The notes under the pieces: generated by a model
The model's database searches: none
The model's input: only the letters and a program-made list of their open reading frames with translations
Told to the model about the DNA's origin: nothing
Part shown: in pieces, positions 39,383 to 39,785 of the stretch
Numbering within the stretch: position 1 is the stretch's first letter
Layout of the letters: every line of letters begins with the position of its first letter
Translations under genes and position numbers: made by a program
Origin: the human T2T-CHM13v2.0 reference genome, Homo sapiens
Assembly: GCF_009914755.1 (NCBI RefSeq)
Contig: NC_060926.1
Length of the DNA stretch: 64,000 nucleotides
Reading direction: 5' to 3' (one strand)

Positions 39383-39454
39383 TTACATTATCTCAGCCCC
39401 CAGCCCACCCCTGCTGCAGTCGGCAAATCCGTGGCGCCCTCCCCTCGGTTCCAT
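39383..39454 (-). CDS. uORF3, 23 aa MEPRGGRHGFADCSRGGLGAEIM (translation unproven)
   Basis: ATG 39454 shares its A with the uORF2 stop (TGATG); ends ATG-TAA at 39388-39383. Confidence 0.35.
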   Translation of the reverse strand: MEPRGGRHGFADCSRGGLGAEIM

Positions 39455-39717
39455 CAAAGGTCCCTTCGGTCGAGGGGCAAGAGCCGAGAGAAGGGCAGGT
39501 CCGGGCGGGCGAGTGGCCTCGCCTTCTCCTCCTCTTCCTCCTCTGGGTCGCGGTCGCCCTCCTCCTCCGGCTCCGGGTCGGCCCGCGCCCGCAGCTGCTG
39601 CTGCGGCGGCGGAGGCGACTGCTGCTCGGCGTCCGGGTGTCTCCGGGGCGGGGGCTGCTCCGGCTCGTCCTCTGGCTGCTGCCCGCCGTCCGGCGCGGTC
39701 GCGACTCCGGCCTTCAT
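39454..39717 (-). CDS. uORF2, 87-aa acidic/Pro-rich candidate microprotein MKAGVATAPDGG...PLDRRDL (translation unproven)
   Basis: ATG 39717 with A at -3 (GGATC ATG A); open to TGA 39456-39454; the ATG-initiated part of track ORF 39454..39891. Confidence 0.5.
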   Translation of the reverse strand: MKAGVATAPDGGQQPEDEPEQPPPRRHPDAEQQSPPPPQQQLRARADPEPEEEGDRDPEEEEEEKARPLARPDLPFSRLLPLDRRDL

Positions 39718-39785
39718 GATCCTCCTCCTCCTCCCCCTTCCCTGGGGGCCAGCCCTGAGCCCCCGCGCCCGGGCAGCGCTGCCAT
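39714..39785 (-). CDS. uORF1, 23 aa MAALPGRGGSGLAPREGGGGGGS (translation unproven)
   Basis: ATG 39785; its TGA (39716-39714) overlaps the uORF2 ATG as ATGA. Confidence 0.4.
   Translation of the reverse strand: MAALPGRGGSGLAPREGGGGGGS

What the first reader, a model, noticed from the sequence alone, without database searches (positions are those of the whole stretch)
39383..39785. Operon-like chain of three stop/start-coupled uORFs (AUGA then UGAUG) in the MARCHF4 leader
Seen: uORF1 (39785, 23 aa) ends TC-ATGA, so its stop overlaps the AUG of uORF2 (39717, 87 aa). uORF2 ends TGATG, so its stop overlaps the AUG of uORF3 (39454, 23 aa), which itself ends in AUG-UAA. The first three AUGs below the TATA cluster therefore tile 403 nt without gaps, in GC-rich sequence where AUGs and stops are scarce. 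Known: AUGA and UGAUG/UAAUG overlaps mark translational coupling in bacteria and termination-reinitiation in some eukaryotic RNA viruses, and are rarely described for cellular mRNAs. I saw no calicivirus-type UGGGA motif 40-80 nt upstream of either junction. Inference: a polycistronic relay that makes a microprotein and meters ribosome flow to the ligase ORF. AUG and UGA share bases, so chance overlap is not negligible.
Basis: partly seen in the sequence, partly recalled or inferred. Interest (0 to 1): 0.85.

Follow-up and report, generated by a model that had tools for sequence, protein, structure and literature searches.

The report
Abutting uORFs in the MARCHF4 leader
Three small upstream reading frames in the long MARCHF4 mRNA leader do touch end to start as described, but two are already catalogued as young, translated uORFs and the touching is most likely an ordinary by-product of sequence, not a ribosome relay.

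Summary
The sequence observation is correct. On the minus strand, uORF1 (39785-39714, 23 codons) ends in TC-ATGA. uORF2 (39717-39454, 87 codons) ends in TGATG. uORF3 (39454-39383, 23 codons) ends ATG-TAA. The annotated exon holds one earlier AUG at 40448.

Dinucleotide shuffles produce such a three-ORF chain in 0.04-3.7% of trials, depending on the null. The same 64-kb window holds 32 such chains in mostly non-genic DNA.

uORF1 and uORF2 are already GENCODE Ribo-seq ORFs: c2norep257, and c2riboseqorf167 (the replicated class). Both are classed 'primatomorpha - young', with 0 MS studies and PhyloCSF-mammals scores of -216.5 and -538.5. uORF3 is not in that table.

Three other ATGA overlaps between catalogued ORFs appear in 134 further rows. 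No UGGGA motif, unusual RNA stability, Rfam family or Pfam domain was found.

Best reading: an ordinary stack of young uORFs. uORF2 has the best Kozak context and is reached by leaky scanning. It is too long for efficient reinitiation. Coupling is untested and unlikely. Interest is low.

The parts
38379..40601 (-). Annotated MARCHF4 exon-1 leader (5'UTR), 2223 nt with 7 AUGs
   Evidence: Hub annotation (NM_020814.3). ATG enumeration. Shuffles give a mean of 12.9 ATGs against 7 observed, and 2.9% of shuffles have 7 or fewer.
40410..40448 (-). uORF0: 12 codons in a (CGG)n tract, stop TAG, weak context (U at -3, C at +4).
   Evidence: TRF finds a CCG repeat at 40416-40440.
39714..39785 (-). uORF1: 23 codons (MAALPGRGGSGLAPREGGGGGGS), context U at -3 and G at +4. 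Equals GENCODE Ribo-seq ORF c2norep257.
   Evidence: Identical peptide in Sandmann 2023 Table S1.
39714..39717 (-). Junction 1: ATGA, where the uORF1 stop TGA overlaps the uORF2 ATG
   Evidence: The 4-nt overlap also shows in the hg38 coordinates of the two catalogued ORFs.
39454..39717 (-). uORF2: 87 codons, Pro/Glu/Arg/Asp-rich, net charge -11, context A at -3 and A at +4. Equals GENCODE Ribo-seq ORF c2riboseqorf167.
   Evidence: Table S1. No Pfam family.
39452..39456 (-). Junction 2: TGATG, where the uORF2 stop TGA shares its A with the uORF3 ATG
39383..39454 (-). uORF3: 23 codons, context U at -3 and G at +4. No row in the Ribo-seq ORF table searched.
   Evidence: The search of 5 supplementary files for MARCHF4 found only uORF1 and uORF2 (file 4 was not searched).
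39383..39388 (-). ATG-TAA start-stop (A at -3), in frame at the end of uORF3
39115..39273 (-). uORF4: 52 codons, weak context, lying between the chain and the main ORF
38902..38925 (-). uORF5: 7 codons, weak context
37863..38378 (-). Start of the MARCHF4 coding sequence. The main AUG at 38378 has C at -3 and C at +4, and a second in-frame AUG lies at 38372.
   Evidence: Hub annotation

Best explanation
This is an ordinary stack of evolutionarily young AUG uORFs in a very long (2.2 kb) MARCHF4 leader whose 5' part is a G+C-rich CpG island.

Proposed mechanism:
1. Scanning 43S complexes mostly leak past the weak AUGs of uORF0 and uORF1, both with U at -3.
2. They are captured at the uORF2 AUG, the only one of the chain with a purine at -3.
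3. After 87 codons, most ribosomes terminate and are recycled.
4. uORF2, with uORF1, therefore acts as a cis-acting barrier that lowers the flow to the main AUG 1.08 kb downstream.

The ATGA and TGATG overlaps are by-products. ATG and TGA share letters. In this T-poor stretch all three frames stay open for 100-170 codons, so any TGA ends whatever ORF is open in its frame.

Shown: the sequence anatomy, published Ribo-seq calls for uORF1 and uORF2, and their lack of coding conservation.
Inferred: leaky scanning as the route to uORF2, poor reinitiation after uORF2, and net repression of the main ORF.
For: - Anatomy and Kozak contexts.
- Frames are open from 39960 to 39456 and from 39886 to 39385. 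Only two stops lie between 39866 and 39395, which is a T-poor stretch (34 T in 403 nt).
- Overlaps are common in real DNA: 185 of 2342 ATGs and 32 three-ORF chains in this window.
- Overlaps are also common among translated ORFs. 4-nt (ATGA) overlaps between catalogued Ribo-seq ORFs occur at EXTL2, TPT1-AS1 and ZNF142, which is 3 loci in 134 rows other than the two MARCHF4 rows.
- The catalogue status tracks Kozak strength. uORF2 is in the replicated class ('riboseqorf' ids are called replicated). uORF1 carries a 'norep' id. uORF3, uORF4 and the short uORFs are absent from the files searched.
- Both catalogued ORFs are 'primatomorpha - young', the modal class (4,914 of 6,506 young sORFs). PhyloCSF-mammals scores are -538.52 and -216.53, with 0 MS studies.
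- Reviews: reinitiation-permissive uORFs are usually under 30 codons in mammals, and short-uORF reinitiation needs a minimum intercistronic distance. [quoted passage not shown]
- No TGGGA near the junctions. RNA folding is no more stable than shuffles, with z of 0.06, 1.62 and -1.07. No Rfam family reached its gathering score. No Pfam family was found.
Against: - Under the stricter nulls the chain is nominally rare: 0.075-0.33% for the local 484 nt, and 1 of 585 or 0 of 617 leader shuffles with 7 or fewer ATGs.
- Both of the only two stops in about 470 nt coincide with AUGs.
- uORF1, at 23 codons, is within the length range permissive for reinitiation, so some hand-over at junction 1 cannot be excluded.
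- PhyloCSF-primates for uORF2 is slightly positive at +12.74.
- The start codons and at least 70% of both ORFs are reconstructed back to the primatomorpha ancestor.
- Absence of uORF3 from a catalogue is weak negative evidence, because short ORFs are hard to call.
- I saw no footprint tracks, no TSS data and no multi-species alignment.
Confidence: 0.72

Rival explanations
1. Partial coupling at junction 1 only. Some 40S subunits that finish the 23-codon uORF1 stay on the mRNA and reinitiate on the overlapping AUG of uORF2 (AUGA). This adds to leaky scanning and has no dedicated regulatory role. Junction 2 is inert.
For: uORF1 is shorter than the roughly 30-codon limit for reinitiation-permissive mammalian uORFs. 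Both ORFs carry Ribo-seq calls. Cellular precedents for overlapping stop-start reinitiation exist: 5 of 24 tested human transcripts, and the SLAMF1 leader and mouse GAD with UGAUG.
Against: Zero intercistronic distance is unfavourable for reloading the ternary complex. There is no UGGGA motif and no unusual structure upstream. Known overlap-coupled events are inefficient: under 5% in a hypovirus, and about 82-fold lower downstream product in CASQ2. uORF2 has the stronger Kozak context, so leaky scanning suffices.
Confidence: 0.15
2. A selected three-cistron relay (uORF1 to uORF2 to uORF3) works by termination-reinitiation at both overlaps. It meters ribosome delivery to the MARCHF4 ORF and produces an 87-aa microprotein.
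For: The tiling is gapless. It is nominally rare under local and ATG-conditioned shuffles. Two of the three ORFs are translated. A start-stop closes the chain. A review describes DENR-MCT-1-dependent reinitiation at start-stop uORFs as enriched in neuronal genes.
Against: uORF2 has 87 codons. uORF3 is not catalogued. The ORFs are young, with strongly negative PhyloCSF-mammals scores and no MS evidence. No tethering motif or structure was found. A further 1005 nt with two more AUG uORFs separate the chain from the main AUG. Chains of this kind are frequent in non-genic DNA.
Confidence: 0.04
3. uORF2 encodes a functional, primate-restricted acidic and proline-rich microprotein, whatever the role of the junctions.
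For: It has a replicated-class Ribo-seq id. PhyloCSF-primates is +12.74. The ORF structure is traced to the primatomorpha ancestor.
Against: 0 MS studies and PhyloCSF-mammals of -538.52. No Pfam family. 86% of residues are P/E/D/Q/R/G/A/S/K and 11% are aliphatic or aromatic, which is the composition expected from translating GAG/GGA/CCG-rich DNA. All three frames are open here.
Confidence: 0.05

Closest known systems
Other GENCODE Ribo-seq uORF/sORF pairs with ATGA overlaps (EXTL2 c1riboseqorf132 to c1riboseqorf130/131; ZNF142 c2norep265 to c2norep264; TPT1-AS1 c13norep26 to c13norep27)
   Same: Two catalogued translated small ORFs on one transcript overlap by exactly 4 nt, which forces ATGA. 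Most are 'young' ORFs.
   Different: Those are pairs. Here a third, uncatalogued ORF follows through TGATG. None of them, including MARCHF4, has been shown to be coupled.
Human SLAMF1 (CD150) long-isoform leader, as described in the Gunisova et al. 2018 review
   Same: A cellular 5' leader with several uORFs and a UGAUG stop-start overlap.
   Different: In SLAMF1 the overlap joins a 29-codon uORF to the main ORF, and a UGGGA-related sequence is reported. Here the UGAUG joins an 87-codon uORF to another uORF and no UGGGA is nearby.
CASQ2-type cellular coupled termination-reinitiation (Gould et al. 2014)
   Same: A human mRNA with overlapping ORFs in different frames. The screen found 4368 transcripts and 2214 genes with such pairs.
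   Different: That mechanism needs an aspartate-rich C-terminus encoded by GAUGAU repeats, with several AUGs in the overlap. It concerns the main ORF and a 3' ORF of at least 50 aa. uORF1 ends GGGGGGS and uORF2 ends LPLDRRDL, with a single AUG at each junction.
Calicivirus and influenza B TURBS-dependent termination-reinitiation
   Same: UAAUG- and AUGA-type overlaps with out-of-frame ORFs.
   Different: It requires an upstream structured element with UGGGA complementary to 18S rRNA. That motif is absent here, and folding is not unusual.
Prokaryotic translational coupling at ATGA/TGATG
   Same: The same overlap motifs (abstract seen in the listing, PMC6728339). A GGAGG-rich (GGA)n tract happens to lie just upstream of the uORF2 AUG.
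   Different: This is a human nuclear mRNA translated by scanning 80S ribosomes. Shine-Dalgarno pairing and 70S scanning do not apply (established knowledge).

Membership tests
Translated uORF (GENCODE Ribo-seq ORF class) | AUG-initiated ORF lying wholly in the 5' leader of an annotated protein-coding transcript | tested here: met
   with the hub annotation of exon 1 and the CDS start
Translated uORF (GENCODE Ribo-seq ORF class) | Ribosome-profiling evidence of translation | not testable with these tools
   No footprint data are available here. Published table: uORF2 = c2riboseqorf167 and uORF1 = c2norep257. uORF3 is absent (file 4 of that supplement was not searched).
TURBS-dependent termination-reinitiation (calicivirus / influenza B type) | Stop and restart codons overlap or are closely adjacent, in different frames | tested here: met
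   ATGA at 39717-39714 and TGATG at 39456-39452
TURBS-dependent termination-reinitiation (calicivirus / influenza B type) | UGGGA motif 1 a few tens of nt upstream of the overlap | tested here: not met
   TGGGA occurs only at 40478 and 40319. The nearer copy (40319) lies about 600 nt upstream of junction 1.
TURBS-dependent termination-reinitiation (calicivirus / influenza B type) | Defined upstream RNA structure (motif 2/2* stem) | tested here: inconclusive
   Folding energies are not below shuffles: z of 0.06, 1.62 and -1.07. A predicted 13-bp stem encloses junction 2 but is not significant. No Rfam match was found.
TURBS-dependent termination-reinitiation (calicivirus / influenza B type) | Downstream ORF translation depends on termination of the upstream ORF | not testable with these tools
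   Needs reporters or profiling
Short-uORF 40S reinitiation (GCN4 / ATF4 type) | uORF short enough to be permissive (usually under 30 codons in mammals) | tested here: inconclusive
   uORF1 and uORF3 have 23 codons, which meets the limit. uORF2 has 87 codons, which does not.
Short-uORF 40S reinitiation (GCN4 / ATF4 type) | Intercistronic distance long enough to reacquire the eIF2 ternary complex | tested here: not met
   The distance is zero or negative at both junctions.
CASQ2-type peptide-dependent coupling (Gould 2014) | Aspartate-rich repeat at the ORF-1 C-terminus, encoded by GAUGAU repeats in the overlap | tested here: not met
   uORF1 ends ...EGGGGGGS and uORF2 ends ...LPLDRRDL. The feature is as described.
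Conserved functional microprotein | Coding-type conservation beyond primates | not testable with these tools
   No mammalian genomes are held. The published table gives 'primatomorpha - young' and PhyloCSF-mammals of -538.52 (uORF2) and -216.53 (uORF1).
Conserved functional microprotein | Recognisable domain or peptide-level detection | tested here: not met
   0 Pfam families at E of 1 or less. The published table lists 0 MS studies.

The most novel reading that the evidence does not exclude
The chain is a selected, primate-lineage cellular termination-reinitiation relay. Ribosomes finishing uORF1 restart on the overlapping uORF2 AUG. A fraction finishing uORF2 restart on uORF3 and then on the AUG-UAA start-stop. 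This sets, in a factor-dependent way (eIF3, DENR-MCTS1 or eIF2D), how many 40S subunits survive to reach the MARCHF4 AUG in neurons. It would be a TURBS-independent three-cistron relay in a human leader.
Probability: 0.04. Interest if true: 0.6.

Novelty: already known. Interest (0 to 1): 0.15.

Why it matters
If the relay were real, it would be a rare cellular example of serial termination-reinitiation without a viral-type tethering element. It would also give a handle on how a brain-expressed RING-CH ligase is dosed.

As it stands, the value of the check is negative and practical:
- Two of the three ORFs are already catalogued as young translated uORFs.
- ATGA/TGATG abutment is frequent both in non-genic DNA and among catalogued Ribo-seq ORFs.
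- Such overlaps alone should not be read as translational coupling in human leaders.

Tried and rejected
- **Mudge et al. 2022 (the catalogue paper):** not held under DOI or PMC id. I could not see which datasets or cell types called the two ORFs. The meaning of 'norep' is recalled, not read. 'riboseqorf' meaning replicated is supported.
- **Supplements of PMC13275300 (peptide evidence for ncORFs):** answered as closed. These files may bear on whether any uORF2 peptide has been detected.
- **Supplement of PMC10506109:** one small file held, with no occurrence.
- **Supplements of the primate-heart study PMC11473369:** MARCHF4 appears only in gene-level tables, with no ORF rows.
- **The brain Ribo-seq study:** held only as a bioRxiv preprint (listing). 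Its supplements are closed, so I did not open it.
- **Literature searches:** MARCHF4 + uORF and MARCH4 + uORF each returned 0 papers. In the library searched, nothing in print discusses these junctions.
- **TP53BP1 paper:** it matched 'AUGA' only through 'AUG^a^' and is irrelevant.
- **Rfam:** three matches at E of 1 or less, all far below gathering scores (27.1 against 84, 24 against 60, 21.5 against 69), so rejected.
- **Multi-species alignment of the junctions:** not possible, because no mammalian genomes are held by any tool here.
- **Large protein-database searches and structure prediction for the uORF2 peptide:** not run. It is a low-complexity query, the databases are mostly prokaryotic, and a blank result would say nothing about mammals.

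Full report
**1. The observation**

I read the minus strand of 37800-40700, listed ATG ORFs under the standard code and enumerated every ATG in the annotated leader.
- uORF1: ATG at 39785, 23 codons, stop TGA at 39716-39714.
- uORF2: ATG at 39717, 87 codons, stop TGA at 39456-39454.
- uORF3: ATG at 39454, 23 codons, last sense codon ATG, stop TAA at 39385-39383.
- The junctions read TC-ATGA and TGATG. The three ORFs tile 403 nt at 73% G+C, with only 34 T.
- No TGGGA lies near either junction. The only copies down to 39300 are at 40478 and 40319.

One omission: measured from the RefSeq start (40601), the 2223-nt leader has seven AUGs. The first is at 40448, a 12-codon ORF in a CGG repeat. The chain is therefore AUGs 2-4.

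Downstream of the chain lie a 52-codon uORF (39273) and a 7-codon uORF (38925). After uORF3 ends, 1005 nt separate it from the main AUG at 38378.

**2. Chance**

In 20,000 dinucleotide-preserving shuffles per test, a chain of three or more stop/start-overlapping ATG ORFs appeared at these rates:

| Null | Rate |
|---|---|
| Whole leader (2223 nt) | 3.5-3.7% |
| G+C-rich sub-stretches 40601-39383 and 40215-39383 | 1.4-1.7% |
| Local 484 nt (39866-39383) | 0.33% |
| All three ORFs of 20 codons or more, leader | 0.82% |
| All three ORFs of 20 codons or more, local | 0.075% |
| Leader shuffles with 7 or fewer ATGs | 1 of 585 |
| Local shuffles with 4 or fewer ATGs | 29 of 16745 |

Per locus the arrangement is therefore uncommon, with P between roughly 0.0004 and 0.04 depending on the null. 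It was, however, selected after the fact.

Real sequence gives the better yardstick. On both strands of this same, mostly intergenic or intronic window, 185 of 2342 ATGs are the downstream partner of an ATGA or T[AG]ATG overlap. There are 32 three-ORF chains. Three of those entries (2 loci) have all ORFs of 20 codons or more, and one is this locus. In the window, 25.5% of ATGs are followed by A and 6.1% of TAA/TGA are followed by TG.

The local reason is visible. uORF2's frame is open from 39960 to 39456 and uORF3's frame from 39886 to 39385. Only two stops lie between 39866 and 39395. In T-poor sequence the few T-containing patches supply both ATG and TGA. By inference from the window rate (about 0.25 chains per kb of strand), human leaders as a whole should hold many such chains by chance. 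I could not count them.

**3. What is known about these ORFs**

A search of the supplements of Sandmann et al. 2023 (PMC10032668; Table S1, parts 1, 40 and 85 read, plus passages of the main text) gave two matches:
- uORF2, with an identical 87-aa peptide, is GENCODE Ribo-seq ORF c2riboseqorf167 (hg38 chr2:216371336-216371599, minus strand).
- uORF1, with an identical 23-aa peptide, is c2norep257 (216371596-216371667).

Both are annotated as uORFs of MARCHF4. Both are classed 'primatomorpha - young' with mode of evolution 'unknown' and 0 MS studies. PhyloCSF-primates scores are +12.74 and -11.20. PhyloCSF-mammals scores are -538.52 and -216.53 (header).

In that paper 'young' means no consistent amino-acid similarity in non-primate mammals. 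'Primatomorpha' means the ATG and at least 70% of the ORF are reconstructed in that ancestor. It is the modal class, at 4,914 of 6,506 young sORFs.

'riboseqorf' ids are called 'replicated Ribo-seq ORFs' in the GENCODE 2023 paper. That 'norep' means a single dataset is my recollection of the catalogue paper, which is not held.

uORF3, which at 23 aa I recall to be above the catalogue's minimum length (not read here), has no row. Neither do uORF4 or the two very short uORFs. This holds for the 5 files searched. File 4 could not be read.

So the region is in the mature mRNA and is translated. The ORFs show no coding conservation outside primates and no peptide evidence in that table. Searches for MARCHF4 or MARCH4 together with uORF returned no paper.

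**4. How common are such junctions among translated ORFs?**

The table gives coordinates including stops, so a 4-nt overlap on one strand must be ATGA. In the three parts I read there are 136 rows, and 134 of them are not MARCHF4. Three further loci show this overlap:
- EXTL2: c1riboseqorf132 into c1riboseqorf130/131.
- ZNF142: c2norep265 into c2norep264.
- TPT1-AS1: c13norep26 into c13norep27.

I saw no 1-nt (TRATG) overlap in those rows. Three loci in 134 rows is a small sample, read by eye. It suggests on the order of a hundred such pairs in the 7,264-ORF catalogue.

**5. Mechanism**

That a purine at -3 and G at +4 matter most is established knowledge.

| AUG | -3 | +4 |
|---|---|---|
| uORF0 | U | C |
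| uORF1 | U | G |
| uORF2 | A | A |
| uORF3 | U | G |
| Start-stop at 39388 | A | U |
| uORF4 | U | C |
| uORF5 | C | C |
| Main AUG | C | C |

Plain leaky scanning therefore predicts the heaviest initiation at uORF2, some at uORF1 and little further down. This matches the catalogue status: replicated, 'norep' and absent, respectively.

Three points from reviews argue against coupling:
- Reinitiation-permissive uORFs are usually under 30 codons in mammals (passages of Gunisova et al. 2018). uORF2 has 87.
- Short-uORF reinitiation needs a minimum intercistronic distance to reload the eIF2 ternary complex. Both distances here are zero.
- Known overlap-coupled systems need a tether, namely a TURBS with UGGGA or another upstream structure, or an Asp-rich nascent peptide as in CASQ2. 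Even then they are inefficient: under 5% in a hypovirus and about 82-fold lower product in CASQ2.

None of these features is present here:
- No TGGGA.
- Folding energy equal to shuffles for the 403 nt (z of 0.06, with 49 of 100 shuffles folding as well). It is also unremarkable for 111-nt windows ending just past each junction (z of 1.62 and -1.07).
- No Rfam family.
- C-termini GGGGGGS and LPLDRRDL.

Sherlock et al. [quoted passage not shown]

My best reading, at 0.72, is an ordinary stack of young uORFs. The main consequence is a cis barrier at uORF2, helped by uORF1, in an already long and G+C-rich leader. A minor, non-selected hand-over at junction 1 remains possible (0.15). The full relay (0.04) and a functional uORF2 microprotein (0.05) are not excluded.

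The uORF2 peptide is 86% P/E/D/Q/R/G/A/S/K with net charge -11 and no Pfam match. That is what translation of GAG/GGA/CCG-rich DNA gives.

**6. Comparison with known systems**

It works like any translated, repressive uORF cluster. It is a member of the GENCODE Ribo-seq uORF class for uORF1 and uORF2.

It shares the overlap motif with the TURBS systems, the SLAMF1 leader and the mouse GAD UGAUG cases, the CASQ2 class and prokaryotic coupling (abstract in the listing). It fails the defining features of each that I could test: UGGGA, the Asp-rich tail, uORF length and distance.

**7. Verdict**

The components are already catalogued.

Limits of this check: I had no footprint tracks, no TSS data and no mammalian alignments. 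Several supplements could not be seen, and the brain Ribo-seq tables are closed.

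Noticed in passing
window 40410-40448 (-): An earlier AUG in the annotated exon. It opens a 12-codon uORF (ATG CAG CAG then a CGG/CCG run, stop TAG) in weak context, inside a (CCG)n tandem repeat. The repeat could vary in length between people and would keep the frame.
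   Followed up: partly
window 39383-39395 (-): Three stops, one in each frame, fall within 13 nt (TGA 39395, TAA 39390, TAA 39385). They lie at the boundary between the CpG-island part and the pyrimidine-rich part of the leader. An ATG-TAA start-stop (39388-39383) with A at -3 lies here. A review links start-stop uORFs to DENR-MCT-1-dependent reinitiation in neuronal genes.
   Followed up: partly
window 38379-38924 (-), and 38828-38840 (-): The last 546 nt before the main AUG hold no ATG, against 4.6 expected from dinucleotide content. The bounds were chosen after the fact. A TATA-like TTTTATATAAAAG sits at 38840-38828. A downstream alternative start site giving a uORF-free leader is conceivable but could not be tested here.
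   Followed up: no
window 38372-38378 (-): The annotated MARCHF4 start AUG has a weak context (C at -3, C at +4). A second in-frame AUG lies two codons downstream, also in weak context.
   Followed up: no
window ~39994-40010 (-) and 39733-39770 (-): A canonical G-quadruplex motif (GGGGCGGGGTGGGGGGG) lies on the mRNA strand upstream of the chain. A looser one, with loops up to 12 nt, lies inside uORF1 just before the uORF2 AUG. Either could slow scanning.
   Followed up: no
window 39720-39738 (-): A (GGA)n tract lies immediately 5' of the uORF2 AUG (GGAGGAGGAGGAGGATCATGA). It looks like a Shine-Dalgarno box and adds to the operon-like appearance. It has no such role on eukaryotic ribosomes.
   Followed up: partly
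window ~39435-39496 (-): A predicted 13-bp stem (GCCCUUCUCUCGG paired with CCGAGGGGAGGGC) encloses the UGAUG junction. The 111-nt window is not significantly more stable than shuffles (z of -1.07, with 29 of 200 shuffles folding as well).
   Followed up: partly
window ~38737-38775 (-): A short direct duplication, 'TTTAAACAATTCGACA', occurs twice in tandem in the A+T-richer part of the leader. It was seen by eye.
   Followed up: no
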